From a virus, in the IMG/VR virus record IMGVR_UViG_3300031414_000013, positions 33,081 to 97,080 of that record: a stretch of 64,000 bases of DNA. One strand, given 5' to 3'. Positions 7,816-39,485 of this stretch are shown one piece after another. The notes beneath the pieces are model-generated. The model was not told the DNA's origin and ran no database searches. It worked only from the letters and a program-made list of their open reading frames with translations. The number at the start of each line of letters is the position of its first letter. Position 1 is the stretch's first letter. The translations under genes and the position numbers were made by a program.

Positions 7816-8312
7816 TTGTTCTTTCCTTTCATTTTGAAGTTTGAGGCAAGAGCAGCAAGCTCGTCGAATGTACGAATAACAAACTGATGCTCTTTGGCGT
7901 CAGTTGCTTTACAGAAAAGCTTCACTGCGTCTTCCAGCGTATCCGTAAGCTCTAAGGCAGCGCGGGCATGCTCTTCTGCGGTAAGGTACTGAGATCGACA
8001 GGTCAACACACCCGGCCCGGTCATAATACGAACCTCACTGAGAAACGAATTTTCCTTATCGACGAAATAGTCACGCAAAACGCCATGCTCATCGACAACG
8101 GCAGTTATCCAGCGACTATCGTGGTTGATGTTATCGGAAACGCCGTCAGCGCGATAGTCCAGGAAGTTAGCGAACACCGGACTAGTCGGTACCAACACGC
8201 CGTACTTAGTAGTCAAAACAGCCAGCGGAATATGTGTGTACATGCCATTGGGACGAACTTCACCACACACGAAAGCAATTCGGTTGTCTCGAACCATATA
8301 AACGTTTGACAT
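7812..8312 (-). CDS. Possible degenerate Ntn-hydrolase/HslV-like subunit
   Basis: N-terminal strands MSNVYMVRDNRIAFV and C-terminal ARAALELTDTLEDAV helix pattern parallel the adjacent HslV-like gene; catalytic motifs lost. Confidence 0.4.
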   Translation of the reverse strand: MSNVYMVRDNRIAFVCGEVRPNGMYTHIPLAVLTTKYGVLVPTSPVFANFLDYRADGVSDNINHDSRWITAVVDEHGVLRDYFVDKENSFLSEVRIMTGPGVLTCRSQYLTAEEHARAALELTDTLEDAVKLFCKATDAKEHQFVIRTFDELAALASNFKMKGKNK

Positions 8313-25036: not shown

Positions 25037-25192
25037 TTACATGATTGCCACTGCTATTGCCAGCACAATCAATACCCATCCTGAGACAGCAAACTCAGCC
25101 ATCAGATAGTGGAAGTGACCTGCAATGCCAAAGCAGATAATAGCAGCCACACTGAGTGCAATCGTAACCGTATTGCGAAAGCGCCTCAGCAT
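25037..25192 (-). CDS. 51-aa two-TM membrane peptide (not in ORF track)
   Basis: MLRRFRNTVTIALSVAAIICFGIAGHFHYLMAEFAVSGWVLIVLAIAVAIM; TAATG coupling to thyA stop. Confidence 0.6.
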   Translation of the reverse strand: MLRRFRNTVTIALSVAAIICFGIAGHFHYLMAEFAVSGWVLIVLAIAVAIM

Positions 25193-26415
25193 TATTTGCT
25201 CACCGGGATAGACACACGTGGATGTGGATCATATCCTTCAAGGGTGAAGTCTTCAAAGATGAAGTCCTTCGGGTCCGTGACGGTACGGCCTTTGGTGTTA
25301 ATTACCAGCTTAGGCAACGGACGTGGTTCACGATCAATGAACTCTGGGATTTTATCCAGTTGGTTATTGTAGATGTGAACATCACCACCGATCCAGATTA
25401 ACTCATCCACCGTGTAGTTGAGGATGTGTGCGAACATGTGACATAGCAGTGCATAGCCAGCGATGTTGAACGGCGTGCCCAGCAGGATATCCTGAGAACG
25501 ACAGTATACGGAAAGAGACAGGGCGCGAGTAGGGACGTTCATGCGGTTAAGCAGCAGCGTATAGTCCTTGTCTTCATTCCACATGGCCGGTAACTCAACA
25601 CCACTGCGTGATGCATACTCGGCCTTACGCTCTTCGTAGGACAGCTCACGGGTATACGCCTGAAGCAGTGTGTGGCACCAGGCCAATGCCGCATTACCAA
25701 CCAATACGTTTTCTTGAGGAGACAGGTTCATCTCATCTGGTAACTCGCTGGCGTTCCAGTTATTCACAATGTGACGGCGTGAGTCTGGGCGAGCTTTCAG
25801 CAGATAGAGCAGCTCGGCGATCTGGTCGCGCGCAGCATCGCTGTAGTCCATCAACTGACTTAAACGGGCAAGATCGATCTTACCATCAAATTCAGCACGA
25901 CGGATTTTATCATCCAGTTGACGACGGTCGATAAAACCAGAGTTCCACTTACGCATTTGTTTGCCGTAGACAGGACCTAAGTCGCCGATACGCAAACCGT
26001 CTTTCAATACCAGGTTAACGTCGCCACCTACGGTATCGCTCTTCACCCACTCCAGTGCTTTGGTGGGTTGCCGATGGAATGAAACGTCCAGTAGGTGTGG
26101 AGGCACCAGACTTTTCAGCTTCTCAATATCAACATGTTCCCACTTGATATCTTCGATGCCAACTGCCCAGTCGTTCCAGATTTTGACGTTCTTCTCGCGT
26201 AGGGTTTCGTTGTTGGTATCCCCGTTTAAGAACCACAGGTTTTCTTCAACGATTGGGCGGAAAGGCGTATGCTTCACGGTAACTAACGGTAAGCCTTCAC
26301 GTAGGTTAAAGCGCATGGTGCGATGGAACACAGATACTGTGCCTGTGCCGGTGCGGTCGCCTTTGTTGTTACCATTGTCACGAACATCTTTAATTAAATC
26401 GATATACTGTTGCAT
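25192..26415 (-). CDS. thyA: Thymidylate synthase with insertions
   Basis: DRTGTGT, LGPVYGKQ.R, DSRR, ALAWCH, RSQD..LG.PFN, DVHIY; start MQQY. Confidence 0.96.
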   Translation of the reverse strand: MQQYIDLIKDVRDNGNNKGDRTGTGTVSVFHRTMRFNLREGLPLVTVKHTPFRPIVEENLWFLNGDTNNETLREKNVKIWNDWAVGIEDIKWEHVDIEKLKSLVPPHLLDVSFHRQPTKALEWVKSDTVGGDVNLVLKDGLRIGDLGPVYGKQMRKWNSGFIDRRQLDDKIRRAEFDGKIDLARLSQLMDYSDAARDQIAELLYLLKARPDSRRHIVNNWNASELPDEMNLSPQENVLVGNAALAWCHTLLQAYTRELSYEERKAEYASRSGVELPAMWNEDKDYTLLLNRMNVPTRALSLSVYCRSQDILLGTPFNIAGYALLCHMFAHILNYTVDELIWIGGDVHIYNNQLDKIPEFIDREPRPLPKLVINTKGRTVTDPKDFIFEDFTLEGYDPHPRVSIPVSK

Positions 26416-26978
26416 TAGAACCCCATGGTCTCTGCCGCTAAAAAGGAACACTCTGGATCTGCGGTACGAATGATCTTACATACAGCAGCCAATTTATATT
26501 CGAAGTCTTCGTACTCTGAGGATAAACGCTCACGAGTCCAAGGCTCGCCCGCATCTCGGTCAAACGAATACCCGCCATCAATATCTTCTCGATAGCGAGT
26601 ACCCATAGTAAAGTGTGCATCGTAGTGAATGCCTTCTACTGGATCACACAACCACACATGAAAGGGGTCGCCCAGTAAAATAAGATCTACACCCATCAGT
26701 TCCAACTGTCCACGTACCAGTGCAGCAAAGGTGTGGCAGAGTCCACAATTGACCAAGTCTGTAATGTCTTTGACGGTTGCATTAACCGCCATAAACGGTG
26801 ACAGCTTTGAGCGCAGTGGTGACAACACCGAACGCAGTTCATTGATCGTGCGGGTGATCAATTGGTTACGTGGAGTTAGAGTCGGCGTCAAGTACGACTC
26901 ACCTTCCTCAAGAAACGGATACGCGAATTTCGCATGTGCGTTAAATAAGTCAGTTGTAGTGATGGGTGTAGTAAACAT
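26415..26978 (-). CDS. Transglutaminase/papain-like Cys-His-Asp protein
   Basis: NCGLCHTFA...HVWL...HYDA. Confidence 0.6.
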   Translation of the reverse strand: MFTTPITTTDLFNAHAKFAYPFLEEGESYLTPTLTPRNQLITRTINELRSVLSPLRSKLSPFMAVNATVKDITDLVNCGLCHTFAALVRGQLELMGVDLILLGDPFHVWLCDPVEGIHYDAHFTMGTRYREDIDGGYSFDRDAGEPWTRERLSSEYEDFEYKLAAVCKIIRTADPECSFLAAETMGF

Positions 26979-28684: not shown

Positions 28685-29274
28685 TCAGGCTCACTATTCA
28701 GATGGTTAGCGATAGCGATGAACTTTCTGGCCTCTGCTTCTGAGGTACCGATGAAACGAGTACTACAGTCTTCAGTAAACCAGATCTGTTCAACGGTCTC
28801 TTCTTCCGGCAAAGCCATCACATACCAACCAACATGCTTAGAGCCAGTTAGGGTATGGCGTGTGCTGATATCGAGGGTTGCTTTAAAGGCAGGGATGATA
28901 CGCAGCCGACACGGCGTGTCCGAATGGAAACCATCCATGCTGATCATATCCAGACTGCCCTGATAACGAACGCGCAGGCTTAAGAGTGCAGCCGTCAATT
29001 CATACGCCTGTACAGCTACCGTAGCTGACATTGGTGTATTGCAGAACACCTCAGTCCAGTTTACTAGCAGTGGGTTTTGTGACAGATTGTGACCCATAAA
29101 AGCGGTGCGCGATTTAGCCAACGCCATGTAGTACTCACGATAGTGGTCTAAACTCACTGCTGGAATCGATTTTGTGTACTCGATGATGCTCGCGGCGAGA
29201 GCACCATCCTGAATAAACTCACCGTTGATGCTAAAGGCGGGACAGATATCCTCCCGAGACATTGGTCTAATCAA
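28681..29274 (-). CDS. Hypothetical protein
   Basis: 197 aa, coupled. Confidence 0.7.
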   Translation of the reverse strand: MIRPMSREDICPAFSINGEFIQDGALAASIIEYTKSIPAVSLDHYREYYMALAKSRTAFMGHNLSQNPLLVNWTEVFCNTPMSATVAVQAYELTAALLSLRVRYQGSLDMISMDGFHSDTPCRLRIIPAFKATLDISTRHTLTGSKHVGWYVMALPEEETVEQIWFTEDCSTRFIGTSEAEARKFIAIANHLNSEPE

Positions 29275-29807
29275 AGTGCCTCCAGTTCTTTCAGGTATTC
29301 GTTAATACGCTTAGCAATGCTGATTTGCAGTACGCGCAGTACATCGCGTTTCTTGTCAATGCCAATTTTTGGGTTAGACATTACCTGCTGTGCTACCAGG
29401 AATGGCGCGCCTGGTGTGCCAGAGGCCGCCATGCTAACATAGTGCGGGTTTAAGAAACGCTCCGGATGGACGAGATGCTCAATTTCATCGGCCGTGCCGG
29501 ATGCAGATAATTCGTTGTTTTTGTAAATTTCTACTGCACGCGATAACACACGCCGTGGTTCGTACTCGTTGAGTCCAATGCCACCGTTATATTGACGGTA
29601 AGATGTGGATTCAAAGAGGTGGAGGTTTCGGTTAAGCTCTTGGGCATACTCGATGATGCCATCAATGGTCTTACGACGTTCGCGTTTGATATACCAACGA
29701 GTCGTTTTGATAAGACTACGGATAGTGCCCAGACACATAACGAAAACGAACAACGCATTTAATGCAACCAGCAGCACTGTGATCTTCAATAACGTAAGTA
29801 AGTCCAT
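29271..29807 (-). CDS. N-terminally anchored membrane protein
   Basis: Long hydrophobic N-terminus followed by a basic stretch. Confidence 0.7.
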   Translation of the reverse strand: MDLLTLLKITVLLVALNALFVFVMCLGTIRSLIKTTRWYIKRERRKTIDGIIEYAQELNRNLHLFESTSYRQYNGGIGLNEYEPRRVLSRAVEIYKNNELSASGTADEIEHLVHPERFLNPHYVSMAASGTPGAPFLVAQQVMSNPKIGIDKKRDVLRVLQISIAKRINEYLKELEAL

Positions 29808-38024: not shown

Positions 38025-38951
38025 TTATGCGTCGGATTCTTTGATGAACACACCGTCGTTGTTCATGTAACCTTTACGGTCTTTGATTTCGTGCCAGGCA
38101 TCGGACATACACTCTTCTACAGTGATGTCGTAGCAGTCAGCCAGATCGTACAGACAGAGCAGTGCGATTTCGATGTCGTCTTTTGAGAGACGCTCAGCCA
38201 GACGGCCACTGTGTACCGCGAAGTTACCCAGGACATTAACCATGGCCTTCATGTGCATCTGCAACAGCTCATGTGGGTCATCGCTCAGAGTGGTGCCCTG
38301 GGTCTTAGAAACTTCGTCCTCAACGCGACGAATGTAGGTACGCAGATCACGCTTGGCAATGCCCATGACGTTGGTCAACACGACAATGCTGTCGCCGATG
38401 CTATCCACAATCAGTGGCAGCTTATTACGACAGATGCCAGAAGCCAGCTCACCGACTTCTTCGTAGTACTTAGAAATCTGACCATTGATCTTACCGCAAG
38501 TCAGAATCTTACGATCAGTTGACCAACCCAATACCTTACCCACAACATCCAGGGTAGGGTAAAGGGTTTTAGTCTTTACCAGGTCGATTGAGATCAGGTT
38601 GATCAGTGCCTTAGTGCCGTCGGGAAATGCAGTGGCGGTACCGCGAATGGCGAATTCACAACCATACGGACGAGCCAGCACCGCAGCAGGAATACGACCG
38701 ACGTCCTGACCTTTAATGATTGCGCCGTCTTTGGTCAGCTCTACTGTTACATCCTCCACCAAACGTTTGGACGGAACTCGTTCGAACAAAGCGTCCGGAT
38801 GTTCGGAATAACCGGTCAGGCGATCTTCACCCCAACGTTGCTCGATAGGGCGGGCATTAAACTCGGCAACTGCCTTTTCCAGTGACTCTTTGGTATACTG
38901 GTTGGTGAGGACTACCGGGAAAGTGAAATACCCGTTTTCATCGTGAGACAT
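38025..38951 (-). CDS. Prohead-protease-like N-domain fused to MazG-like NTP pyrophosphohydrolase
   Basis: C-domain EEVGEL...DSIGD..VVL...EC...AW.EIKDRKG...GVFIKE; N-domain Y.K..LEKAV, GE..EHP, FAIRG, IDLV. Confidence 0.75.
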   Translation of the reverse strand: MSHDENGYFTFPVVLTNQYTKESLEKAVAEFNARPIEQRWGEDRLTGYSEHPDALFERVPSKRLVEDVTVELTKDGAIIKGQDVGRIPAAVLARPYGCEFAIRGTATAFPDGTKALINLISIDLVKTKTLYPTLDVVGKVLGWSTDRKILTCGKINGQISKYYEEVGELASGICRNKLPLIVDSIGDSIVVLTNVMGIAKRDLRTYIRRVEDEVSKTQGTTLSDDPHELLQMHMKAMVNVLGNFAVHSGRLAERLSKDDIEIALLCLYDLADCYDITVEECMSDAWHEIKDRKGYMNNDGVFIKESDA

Positions 38952-39038
38952 ATTTGAATCCTTTAACTTAGTTAGCGTTTCTTTATAGCACGCGGTCGGT
39001 TGTAAAAGGTCGCCACGGCGCAGCGACGTCGGGATTAC

Positions 39039-39485
39039 TTAGTGAACCAGTTTTAGTGAAGGTTTGGACTTGACCGGTACATCTTCTTTAGCCTGACCGT
39101 CGCCGAAGTTCTCGAACCAGGACTTAGCGCTGGCATAGTCGCACACAGGTTGACCGATTAAAGTTGTGCGGCCATACATTACTGCGATCTGTTGGTAGGC
39201 CAGAACTACGTTGTGTTCTTTTCCACCGAAACGACAATTGAAGGTCAAATACTCAGGACCGAAATTAAGATTGCCTGTGGCTGCCGGGTTAACGTTCAGG
39301 ACGATAGTAGGTACGGCACCTTCGCCCTGCGCTGGTTGGGTGAAGCCGAGTAACACGGGGTCAGTCACAAAGTCAGCGAACAGTTGAACGTAGGGTACAT
39401 CGAATTCACAAACCCAACGGTGCGTTGCTTCTGCAAAGTGTGGCAGGAATGAAGGAACAACGATTTCTTTTTCAGATTGGCTCAT
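39039..39485 (-). CDS. sspB: SspB-like ClpXP adaptor
   Basis: W....PY, IVLNV.P.A.GNL, FNCRFGG, C-terminal KPSLKLVH XB-like tail. Confidence 0.88.
   Translation of the reverse strand: MSQSEKEIVVPSFLPHFAEATHRWVCEFDVPYVQLFADFVTDPVLLGFTQPAQGEGAVPTIVLNVNPAATGNLNFGPEYLTFNCRFGGKEHNVVLAYQQIAVMYGRTTLIGQPVCDYASAKSWFENFGDGQAKEDVPVKSKPSLKLVH

What the first reader, a model, noticed from the sequence alone, without database searches (positions are those of the whole stretch)
38025..38951. Catalytically dead prohead-protease-like domain fused to a MazG-like pyrophosphatase
Seen: the first ~125 aa contain YTKESLEKAV, WGE..EHP, FAIRG and ISIDLV in that order. Established: T4 gp21-type maturation proteases have YP...LEKAV, LGEL.HP, a catalytic Ser in (V/F)S(S/I)R and a downstream D.V. 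Here that Ser position is Ala. The C-terminal half is MazG-like (EEVGEL, DSIGD, EIKDRKG) with an internal insertion. Inference: prohead proteases are reported triggers of some defence systems, so a pseudo-protease tethered to a nucleotide hydrolase could act as a decoy that brings nucleotide destruction to the sensor. Alternatively it targets MazG to procapsids or regulates the real protease.
Basis: partly seen in the sequence, partly recalled or inferred. Interest (0 to 1): 0.8.

Follow-up and report, generated by a model that had tools for sequence, protein, structure and literature searches.

The report
Dead prohead-protease domain fused to MazG
A giant-phage gene joins a copy of the capsid-maturation protease that has lost its cutting residues to an intact nucleotide-destroying MazG enzyme; the dead protease part most likely docks the enzyme onto a partner protein, and the partner is unknown.

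Summary

- **N-domain fold.** Residues 1-130 fold confidently (pLDDT 82.9). In an unbiased scan of 48,161 PDB chains, T4 gp21 prohead protease is the only strong match (Z 9.3). Herpesvirus assemblins come next.
- **Motifs.** Four collinear gp21 motifs are present. Catalytic Ser140 corresponds to Ala101, and is Ala, Gly or Thr in all 14 domain copies. The catalytic His is lost. The Asp (D123) is invariant.
- **Sequence profiles.** These give only marginal support, so the homology call rests mainly on the predicted structure plus the motifs.
- **MazG half.** Residues ~135-308 are a MazG-like NTP pyrophosphohydrolase with its acidic metal-binding motifs intact and a ~75-aa helical insert.
- **Real protease.** Relatives, including the 272-kb Erwinia phage pEa_SNUABM_54, carry a separate S80-type prohead protease. 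The N-domain is therefore a pseudo-enzyme.
- **Modularity.** The N-domain occurs single, in tandem, or alone. It always sits next to an SspB-like gene.

Function is inferred: a non-catalytic docking module that places MazG on a partner. A 2026 preprint showing that gp21 activity trips CBASS makes it more plausible. Diverged protease paralogs in giant phages are known (SPN3US gp117); this fusion is not. The scan had not noted this before on other DNA.

The parts
38025..38951 (-). Whole gene: 308-aa pseudo-protease / MazG fusion protein (stop codon 38025-38027)
   Evidence: ORF list. Full-length homologs at 50-90% identity, P0001-P0008. 48% identical to a 'hypothetical protein' of Erwinia phage pEa_SNUABM_54.
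38959..38964 (-). Ribosome-binding site AAAGGA, 7 nt upstream of the ATG
   Evidence: Sequence read.
38562..38951 (-). N-domain (aa 1-130): gp21/assemblin-fold pseudo-protease
   Evidence: AF2 model of the domain alone: pLDDT 82.9, pTM 0.78. VIA-align against 48,161 chains: 5jbl (T4 gp21) Z 9.3, rmsd 3.0 over 119 aa; next are VZV protease at Z 5.2 and HCMV protease at Z 3.6. Foldseek top hit is 5jbl. No Pfam or PHROG hit.
38868..38897 (-). Motif Y19TKESLEKAV28, equivalent to gp21 Y57PKRILEKAV66
   Evidence: BLASTP and hhalign align this stretch. Y19, L24 and A27 are invariant in homologs.
38826..38837 (-). Motif R39-W-G41-E42, equivalent to the G81-E82 of gp21 'GELNHP'; the His position is Leu45 here
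   Evidence: R39, G41 and E42 are invariant. The real protease of relative pEa54 reads GELGHP. His51 of 'EHP' is not conserved.
38640..38654 (-). Motif F100-A101-I102-R103-G104, where Ala101 replaces the catalytic Ser
   Evidence: Equivalents are gp21 V139-S140-S141-R142-G143, SPN3US gp245 F-S153-L-R and the pEa54 real protease Q-S-I-R. The position is A, G or T in all 14 domain copies.
38577..38591 (-). Motif S121-I-D123-L-V125: retained third triad residue (Asp)
   Evidence: Equivalents are gp21 V167-D168-A-V, gp245 T-F-D178-W-V and pEa54 protease T-Y-D-H-V. D123 is invariant.
38028..38549 (-). MazG-like all-alpha NTP pyrophosphohydrolase domain (aa ~135-308)
   Evidence: phrog_7855 at 2.7e-44, phrog_1992 at 1.1e-37, phrog_715 at 2e-26. 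Pfam MazG at 0.013, below its cut-off. A domain profile hits PDB MazG-like proteins 1vmg (1.4e-5), 2gta, 2yxh, 5ie9 and 2q73. VIA Z 6.1-6.6 to HisE/MazG structures, on a low-confidence part of the model.
38448..38462 (-). First acidic metal-binding motif, E164-E165-V-G-E168
   Evidence: Invariant in all homologs. Aligned to 'EEvGELA' of PDB MazG-like proteins.
38391..38405 (-). Second acidic motif, D183-S-I-G-D187
   Evidence: Invariant. Aligned to the 'E(E/D)xxD' helix of MazG-like structures.
38127..38354 (-). Helical insertion of ~75 aa (aa ~200-275) inside the MazG domain
   Evidence: Absent from short MazG-like relatives P0009-P0016, present in this clade and P0017. Predicted helical.
39039..39485 (-). 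Conserved upstream neighbour: SspB-like protein (context, not part of the gene)
   Evidence: phrog_8945 at 1.6e-12. Pfam SspB at 2.9e-5. The same neighbour lies directly upstream of the fusion in L039 and pEa_SNUABM_54.

Best explanation
The protein has two modules.

**Module 1 (aa 1-130)** derives from the gp21/S80 prohead-protease core. It keeps the fold, the triad Asp (D123) and the motifs that line the former active-site cleft (Y..L..AV, R-x-G-E, x-I-R-G, I-D-L-V). The Ser nucleophile is Ala101 and the general-base His is Leu45, so it cannot cut (shown by structure prediction and alignment).

**Module 2 (aa ~135-308)** is a MazG-type NTP pyrophosphohydrolase with all its acidic metal ligands. 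It is presumably active on (d)NTP-like substrates (inferred from the motifs).

**Most likely mechanism (inferred).** The dead protease domain is a non-catalytic docking module. It would bind either a peptide segment of the kind the phage's real protease recognises (S/A/G-x-E-type) or a protease-like partner, and so place the pyrophosphatase on that partner. The partner is unresolved. Candidates are phage head-assembly proteins or a host protein that senses protease activity. The enzyme half would clean or deplete a nucleotide pool, as proposed for other jumbo-phage MazG-like enzymes.
For: **Fold.**
- The domain-alone model has pLDDT 82.9.
- Of 48,161 PDB chains, only T4 gp21 reaches Z >= 8 (Z 9.3, rmsd 3.0, 119 of 132 residues). 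Ranks 2 and 3 are herpesvirus assemblins. Foldseek agrees, as does VIA-align on Foldseek's candidates.
- BFVD matches include real prohead proteases and ~125-160-aa proteins of phiKZ-like phages. One is a 145-aa 201phi2-1 protein, the length reported for gp206 in PMC5694885.

**Dead active site with a conserved cleft.**
- Ser140 aligns with Ala101 (A/G/T in 14 copies). The His is not conserved. D123, R103-G104 and G41-E42 are invariant.

**A separate real protease exists.**
- pEa54 102638-103432 matches SPN3US gp245 at 2.5e-32 and reads GELGHP / QSIR / TYDHV. G001 has an 83% identical copy.

**The domain is modular, as expected for a binding module.**
- Two tandem copies plus MazG in P0004-6.
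- A stand-alone 154-aa form, P0019, whose C-terminus equals the alternate frame over this gene's start.
- A remnant of that gene in L002.

**MazG half.**
- Membership and motifs are intact.
- The same MazG core is fused to other accessory domains in other phage proteins.
- Jumbo-phage MazG-like enzymes have been proposed to degrade unmodified NTPs (PMC7824862).
Against: - No binding partner was shown, and no multimer modelling was possible.
- Sequence-profile support for protease homology is marginal. hhalign against a gp21-family alignment gives E 0.0081, and 1 of 40 column shuffles scored higher. Pfam PF03420 and phrog_207 do not hit. The case therefore leans on a predicted structure built from only 11 sequences.
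- The MazG part of the full-length model is low-confidence.
- MazG enzymes oligomerise on their own, so the N-domain could be a purely internal regulator.
Confidence: 0.5

Rival explanations
1. Anti-immune shield or decoy. The dead protease domain binds, without cutting, the protease 'tripwire' loops of host sensors such as CBASS CD-NTases. This blocks their activation by the phage's real prohead protease. The fused MazG removes NTP substrates or 5'-triphosphate intermediates at the sensor.
For: - T4 gp21 protease activity activates CBASS by cleaving a CD-NTase activation loop, and the gp21 active site is required (PMC12991175).
- Prohead-protease mutations allow escape from type I CBASS (Richmond-Buccola 2024, as cited and summarised in PMC12359967 and PMC13728456).
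- The N-domain keeps the cleft motifs but lacks Ser and His. That is the design of a substrate trap.
- The gene sits among non-structural genes.
Against: - No test was done here, and no known anti-CBASS family matches.
- MazG enzymes cut NTP pyrophosphate bonds, not cyclic-nucleotide phosphodiesters.
- The family is tiny: one isolate among 50,697 phage records and six hits among 1.84 billion representatives, three of them repeat-rich false positives.
- A stoichiometric shield would need high expression.
Confidence: 0.1
2. Capsid cargo. The protease-like domain co-assembles with the real protease or scaffold core of the prohead. MazG is then packaged and ejected into the next host with the DNA.
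For: - T4 gp21 is a pentameric component of the prohead core, about 55 copies (PMC9958956).
- SPN3US-like giant phages package many ejection proteins (PMC5694885).
- The phage lineage has an S80-type protease.
Against: - The C-terminal extension thought to target real proteases into the prohead is absent; MazG replaces it (PMC5694885 section 20).
- No conserved S/A/G-x-E site lies in the N-domain/MazG linker.
- The gene lies with helicase, SspB-like and nucleotide-metabolism genes.
- The SPN3US MazG (gp235 by my numbering) is not mentioned in the SPN3US virion-proteome paper or in its held supplements. This is weak evidence, because its N-extension is not detectably related to this one.
Confidence: 0.15
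3. Internal regulator or oligomerisation domain. The N-domain only controls assembly or activity of its own MazG domain and has no external partner.
For: - gp21 is pentameric and herpes proteases are dimeric (established knowledge).
- Nearly all jumbo-phage MazG proteins checked (277-313 aa) carry some N-terminal extension of ~95-125 aa.
Against: - A stand-alone N-domain gene exists (P0019), and tandem copies occur. Both show the domain can function without being attached one-to-one to MazG.
- Conservation is concentrated on former active-site motifs rather than on a MazG-facing surface.
- The full-length model gave no confident interdomain packing (pTM 0.41).
Confidence: 0.2
4. Not a protease relative at all. 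The fold match is convergence or an artefact of a shallow-alignment AlphaFold model, and the motif matches are chance.
For: - Profile searches fail or are marginal.
- One of 40 shuffled alignments beat the real hhalign score.
- The model rests on 9-11 sequences.
Against: - All five models agree (pLDDT 80.5-82.9).
- gp21 is the single outlier among 48,161 chains, and assemblins follow it.
- Four motifs are collinear and fall exactly on the catalytic-site motifs of gp21 and of the phage lineage's own protease.
- The composite motif has no false positive in 321,754 residues.
- In the same shallow set-up, accepted homologs (S80 proteases against the gp21 family) score only E 0.0021.
Confidence: 0.05

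Closest known systems
T4 gp21 prohead (capsid assembly) protease, PDB 5jbl, MEROPS S77
   Same: Same fold: Z 9.3, rmsd 3.0 over 119 aa, 17% identity. Collinear motifs Y-x-K-x-x-LEKAV, GE, x-R-G and x-D-x-V. The triad Asp is retained.
   Different: - No Ser nucleophile (Ala101) and no His.
- About 30 residues shorter in the core.
- No N-terminal autoinhibitory peptide or C-terminal extension.
- No Pfam PF03420 or phrog_207 match.
- Fused to an enzyme.
S80-type prohead proteases of giant phages (SPN3US gp245; pEa_SNUABM_54 102638-103432)
   Same: Encoded in the same phage lineage. Shares the local motifs x-S/A-I/L-R and T/S-x-D-x-V.
   Different: The real enzyme has GELGHP, QSIR and TYDHV plus a ~70-aa C-terminal tail. 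The N-domain is a separate, inactive copy. hhalign between the two is not significant (E 0.38).
Diverged prohead-protease paralogs of giant phages (SPN3US gp117, 201phi2-1 gp206, PhiPA3 gp143; PMC5694885)
   Same: A small (~135-160 aa) second copy of the protease fold in a giant phage, lacking the catalytic His, function unknown. A 145-aa 201phi2-1 protein is a BFVD structural match (E 5.9e-5, TM 0.56).
   Different: Those paralogs are stand-alone and keep the Ser and Asp (gp117 S126, D144). This domain has lost the Ser as well, is fused to MazG, and shows no detectable sequence similarity to gp117 (hhalign E 0.15; phmmer shows nothing).
Jumbo-phage 'mazG nucleotide pyrophosphohydrolase' (SPN3US YP_009153529, Machina gp247, phiEaH2; phrog_7855/1992)
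   Same: The MazG core with its helical insertion is 35-41% identical. These proteins also have an N-terminal extension of ~95-125 aa and lie near thymidylate synthase.
   Different: Their N-extension shows no detectable similarity to this N-domain or to gp21 (hmmsearch and hhalign).
Short MazG-like NTP pyrophosphohydrolases (PDB 1vmg, 2gta YpjD, 2yxh, 5ie9, iMazG 2q73; cyanophage S-2L MazG 7ody)
   Same: The EExxE ... DxxxD acidic motifs and helical core.
   Different: This protein carries a ~75-aa insertion and the N-terminal pseudo-protease. Its substrate is unknown.

Membership tests
gp21/S77-S80 prohead protease (assemblin-like fold) | Assemblin/gp21 three-dimensional fold | tested here: met
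   Predicted model only. 5jbl scores Z 9.3 and is the only chain of 48,161 with Z >= 8; VZV and HCMV proteases come next. Foldseek top hit is 5jbl.
gp21/S77-S80 prohead protease (assemblin-like fold) | Match to the family's sequence profiles (Pfam Peptidase_S77, phrog_207) | tested here: not met
   No Pfam or PHROG hit for aa 1-130 at E <= 10. No PF03420 or phrog_207 hit in the record. hhalign against a home-made gp21-family alignment gives E 0.0081, with 1 of 40 shuffles higher.
gp21/S77-S80 prohead protease (assemblin-like fold) | Catalytic Ser nucleophile (gp21 S140) | tested here: not met
   The aligned position is Ala101. It is A, G or T in 14 domain copies and never S.
gp21/S77-S80 prohead protease (assemblin-like fold) | Catalytic His (gp21 H85 in GELNHP) | tested here: not met
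   After the conserved G41-E42 the aligned residue is Leu45, and it varies in homologs. His51 of 'EHP' is not conserved.
gp21/S77-S80 prohead protease (assemblin-like fold) | Third triad residue Asp (gp21 D168; gp245 D178) | tested here: met
   D123 in S-I-D-L-V is invariant in all copies. The triad identity comes from PMC5694885.
gp21/S77-S80 prohead protease (assemblin-like fold) | C-terminal extension removed by autocleavage and thought to target the enzyme into the prohead | tested here: not met
   The domain ends at ~aa 130 and is followed by MazG. The real proteases of gp245 and pEa54 have ~70 further residues.
MazG-like all-alpha NTP pyrophosphohydrolase | Profile match to MazG-like families | tested here: met
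   phrog_7855 at 2.7e-44 and phrog_715 at 2e-26. A domain profile hits PDB 1vmg at 1.4e-5, plus 2gta, 2yxh and 5ie9. Pfam MazG scores 16.2 bits, below its 22-bit cut-off.
MazG-like all-alpha NTP pyrophosphohydrolase | Acidic metal-binding motifs EExxE ... (E/D)xxxD | tested here: met
   E164, E165, E168, D183 and D187 are invariant and aligned to the motifs of solved MazG-like proteins.
MazG-like all-alpha NTP pyrophosphohydrolase | Four-helix MazG fold | tested here: inconclusive
   VIA Z 6.1-6.6 to HisE/MazG structures, but helical matches at this Z are common, and residues 127-184 of the model have pLDDT < 50.
MazG-like all-alpha NTP pyrophosphohydrolase | NTP pyrophosphohydrolase activity | not testable with these tools
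   Needs an enzyme assay.
Giant-phage diverged protease paralogs (SPN3US gp117 class) | Sequence relationship to gp117 and its homologs | tested here: inconclusive
   hhalign of the N-domain alignment against the single gp117 sequence gives E 0.15. phmmer of gp117 against all ORFs of pEa54 and G000 finds nothing. No gp117-family alignment was available.
Giant-phage diverged protease paralogs (SPN3US gp117 class) | Stand-alone small protein that keeps Ser and Asp but lacks His | tested here: not met
   Here the Ser is also lost and the domain is fused to MazG. A stand-alone relative, P0019, exists, but it too has Ala at the Ser position.

The most novel reading that the evidence does not exclude
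The dead protease domain is a substrate trap aimed at host immune 'tripwires'. It would bind the activation loops that CBASS CD-NTases offer to phage prohead proteases, and would mask them from the phage's real protease. The tethered MazG would destroy the sensor's NTP substrates. That would be a new class of anti-CBASS protein built from a pseudo-enzyme copy of the very trigger the host senses. The stand-alone protease paralogs of other giant phages (the gp117 class) might then do the same job.
Probability: 0.1. Interest if true: 0.9.

Novelty: new variant of a known kind. Interest (0 to 1): 0.6.

Why it matters
Second, diverged copies of the prohead protease in giant phages were reported in 2017 and still have no function. 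This is a clearer case. Both the nucleophile and the base are gone, the cleft motifs are kept, and the domain is wired to an enzyme with a readable activity.

That gives an experimental handle. Whatever the dead domain binds is where the phage wants nucleotide hydrolysis. Protease activity is now known to be a signal that bacterial CBASS immunity senses. A phage-made inactive copy of that protease is therefore a direct, testable candidate for immune masking or for control of the real protease.

An isolated phage, Erwinia phage pEa_SNUABM_54, carries the gene, so the tests are feasible.

Tried and rejected
**Searches that found nothing or too little**
- Pfam and PHROG scans of aa 1-130 gave no hit.
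- PDB sequence searches with the protein and with a full-length profile found neither a protease nor, from the full profile, MazG.
- A megablast of the region against 50,697 phage records found no match.
- The phmmer search of the N-domain against 1.84 billion representatives returned six hits. Three (P0018, P0020, P0021) are repeat-rich false positives.
- Scans of IMG/VR with P0019 and P0004 found nothing.
- The ESM Atlas gave only sub-threshold leads, including a cluster in which 39% of members carry Peptidase_S77, and DUF2213.
- The list of T4 gp21 homologs showed only proteins at >= 65% identity. I therefore fetched eight diverse proteases one by one to build the profile.

**Family searches that missed known or expected proteases**
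- PF03420 and phrog_207 found no protease in the window's record, its relatives, or even SPN3US. These models simply miss S80-type enzymes. The real protease was found with SPN3US gp245 instead.

**Ideas tested and dropped**
- The N-extension of SPN3US-type MazG proteins shows no detectable similarity to this domain.
- No tail-tube or Hcp-like match scored above Z 2.5, so a tube-protein reading was dropped. MCE/MlaD matches at Z 3-4.8 were treated as generic beta-barrel resemblance.

**Unavailable**
Only L039 was obtained, by another route.
- The Richmond-Buccola 2024 paper is not held.
Full report
**Where and what.** The interval 38025-38951 holds one ORF of 308 aa on the minus strand. The plus strand there is closed. 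An AAAGGA ribosome-binding site lies 7 nt before the ATG.

The window is part of a 97-kb IMG/VR virus record estimated to be 36% complete. The window also encodes a large terminase, an NAD-dependent ligase, a thymidylate-synthase-like enzyme, an RNA ligase and a helicase. The nearest isolate is the 272-kb Erwinia phage pEa_SNUABM_54. Its orthologue is 48% identical and annotated 'hypothetical protein'.

**The C-terminal half is MazG-like and looks active.**
- Residues ~127-308 match PHROG families annotated as MazG pyrophosphatases at 2.7e-44 to 2e-26. Pfam MazG itself is sub-threshold.
- A profile of the domain together with short relatives hits solved MazG-like proteins: 1vmg at 1.4e-5, plus 2gta, 2yxh, 5ie9 and 2q73. 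The alignment runs through 'EEvGELA' and the second acidic helix.
- E164, E165, E168, D183 and D187 are invariant.
- This clade carries a ~75-aa helical insertion (about residues 200-275) that short relatives lack.
- The same alignment shows this MazG core joined to several unrelated accessory domains in other phage proteins.

**The N-terminal 130 residues have the prohead-protease fold.**
- Sequence libraries are silent.
- AlphaFold2 on the full protein (9 sequences) gave the N-domain a block-mean pLDDT of 51-89, mostly 67-89. On the domain alone (11 sequences) all five models agree: pLDDT 80.5-82.9, pTM 0.78.
- Foldseek against the PDB puts T4 gp21 (5jbl) first for both models: E 8.2e-4 and 1.3e-2, probability 0.99-1.00.
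- The Foldseek-independent scan of 48,161 chains gives 5jbl Z 9.3 (rmsd 3.0, 119 aligned residues, 17% identity). It is the only chain with Z >= 8. VZV protease (Z 5.2) and HCMV protease (Z 3.6) follow, and everything else is at Z 3.5 or below. A second look at Foldseek's candidates gave Z 9.7.
- In the viral predicted-structure library the matches include annotated prohead proteases and 125-160-aa proteins of phiKZ-like phages. One is a 145-aa protein of 201phi2-1.

**Motifs and the active site.** The T4 gp21 triad is His85, Ser140 and Asp168. The His-Ser-Asp triad identity comes from PMC5694885.

| gp21 | This protein |
|---|---|
| V49VNRN...Y57PKRILEKAV | (V/T)NxxY19TKESLEKAV |
| G81E82LNH85P | G41E42DRL45 |
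| V139-S140-S-R142-G143 | F100-A101-I-R103-G104 |
| V167-D168-A-V | I122-D123-L-V |

The real protease of the same phage lineage reads GELGHP, Q-S-I-R and T-Y-D-H-V, which makes the Ser-to-Ala change explicit. In 14 domain copies the nucleophile position is Ala, Gly or, once, Thr. Meanwhile Y19, R39, G41, E42, F100, I102, R103, G104 and D123 are invariant. The domain is therefore catalytically dead, yet selection has held on to the residues that frame the former cleft.

**How strong is the homology claim?** On sequence alone it is weak.
- BLASTP and hhalign against single sequences give E 0.07-0.15.
- hhalign against my 16-member gp21-family alignment gives E 0.0081 over 105 columns. One of 40 column-shuffled controls scored higher.
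- As a positive control, accepted homologs (S80 proteases against the gp21 family) reached only E 0.0021 in the same shallow set-up. The published value with deep alignments is 1.1e-11 (PMC5694885).
- A post-hoc composite regular expression hit 13 of 14 N-domains, 11 of 16 diverse gp21 relatives, and nothing else in 321,754 residues of six-frame ORFs.

Taken together with the structure result, I put protease ancestry at about 0.85-0.9.

**It is not the phage's working protease.** SPN3US gp245 finds a 258-aa S80-type protease in pEa_SNUABM_54 (2.5e-32). An 83% identical copy lies in G001, a metagenomic relative whose fusion protein is 86% identical to this one. The window's own record is a fragment and lacks that region.

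**Distribution and modularity.** The family is small.
- Eight 90%-identity clusters have full-length matches.
- There are three real hits among 1.84 billion representatives.
- One isolate is found among 50,697 phage records.

The architectures vary:
- b-type N-domain plus MazG (this gene, P0001-3, P0007, P0008);
- a-type N-domain plus MazG (pEa54);
- a-type plus b-type plus MazG (P0004-6, 455-459 aa);
- a stand-alone a-type protein (P0019, 154 aa).

The last nine residues of P0019 (KGFKYVSR plus stop) are exactly the alternate-frame reading across this gene's ribosome-binding site and start codon. P0019's gene must therefore overlap the start of a window-like fusion gene. L002 keeps about 22 codons of that gene's tail in its intergenic spacer. 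In P0004-6 the two are in frame. The domain is thus gained, lost, fused and duplicated as a unit, which is the behaviour of a binding or targeting module.

In all three lineages with context, the fusion gene directly follows an SspB-like gene and lies near a divergent helicase.

**What is known.** Thomas and colleagues (PMC5694885, section 17) described 'extremely diverged' second copies of the prohead protease in giant phages: SPN3US gp117, 201phi2-1 gp206 and PhiPA3 gp143. These are stand-alone, keep the Ser and Asp, lack the aligned His, and have no known function. The present domain is a further step. It has neither Ser nor His, it is fused to an enzyme, and it shows no detectable sequence tie to gp117.

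Other jumbo-phage MazG proteins also have N-extensions, but I could not relate them to this one. I found no paper describing a protease-like domain on a MazG.

**Mechanism.**
- Shown or strongly supported: the fold, the loss of the triad Ser and His, the intact MazG motifs, the separate real protease, and the modularity.
- Inferred: the N-domain is a non-catalytic docking module that uses the old cleft or the old oligomer contacts, and MazG hydrolyses (d)NTP-like substrates at that site.
- Unresolved: which partner it binds.

The capsid-cargo version is weakened by the missing C-terminal targeting tail, the lack of a conserved cleavage site in the linker, and the non-structural gene neighbourhood.

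The immune-shield version gains logic from Hobbs & Kranzusch (PMC12991175). They show that gp21's catalytic activity switches on CBASS by cutting a CD-NTase loop. No data here bear on it.

An internal-regulator role remains possible.

**Limits.**
- All structure evidence is predicted, from shallow alignments.
- No multimer modelling was available, and no residue-level structural superposition could be exported.

Noticed in passing
window 39039-39485 (-); L039:4006-4437; L001:5536-5979: The gene directly upstream is SspB-like (phrog_8945 at 1.6e-12; Pfam SspB at 2.9e-5, 4.2e-8 and 5.5e-4 in the three lineages). It ends ...KPSLKLVH (RPKLTIVK in pEa54). From memory, that resembles the ClpX-binding tail of E. 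coli SspB. It may be a phage-encoded ClpXP adaptor. It is conserved next to the fusion gene in all three lineages.
   Followed up: partly
window 38941-38967 (-), alternate frame; L002 about 7905-8000: The alternate frame over the fusion gene's ribosome-binding site and start reads VKGFKYVSR-stop. Its last eight residues plus the stop equal the C-terminus of the stand-alone N-domain protein P0019. L002's spacer keeps ~22 codons of that tail (RDKTDTPTKFKGFEYVP). This is a footprint of a lost or overlapping upstream N-domain gene.
   Followed up: partly
window 29271-29807 (-): A 178-aa ORF with a hydrophobic N-terminus carries ELNRN...YEPRRVLSRAVEIY...HLVHPER. This resembles the N-terminal gp21 motifs VVNRNKRLYPKRILEKAVKDY...GELNHP (hhalign against the gp21 family E 6.8e-4). 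It has no Ser region and no Pfam hit. It is either a protease-derived fragment or chance.
   Followed up: partly
window 38930-38951 (-), protein N-terminus: The N-terminus MSHDENGYF contains DENGY, reminiscent of the NDENY part of the ssrA tag that SspB binds (from memory). It is present only in the closest homologs (P0001-3), not in P0007 or P0008, so it is probably coincidence.
   Followed up: no
window 25192-26451 (-): A thymidylate-synthase-like protein of 419 aa whose match to a 335-position profile spans residues 12-418. It therefore carries a large insertion. Together with MazG, this hints at nucleotide-pool engineering.
   Followed up: no
P0009-P0015 (proteins): The same MazG-like core is fused in other phage proteins to unrelated accessory domains: N-terminal ~130-aa extensions in P0009, P0013 and P0014, and a C-terminal PF12957 domain in P0011 and P0015. 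Accessory-domain swapping seems general for this MazG family.
   Followed up: no
BFVD entry A0A345BLR6 (Erwinia phage Wellington, 460 aa): It is annotated as a putative nucleotide pyrophosphohydrolase and is a structural match to the full model (E 3.3e-6). Its length suggests extra N-terminal domains like those of P0004-6. It did not appear among the listed sequence hits in the phage collection (top 40 of 622 records; top 12 of 91).
   Followed up: no
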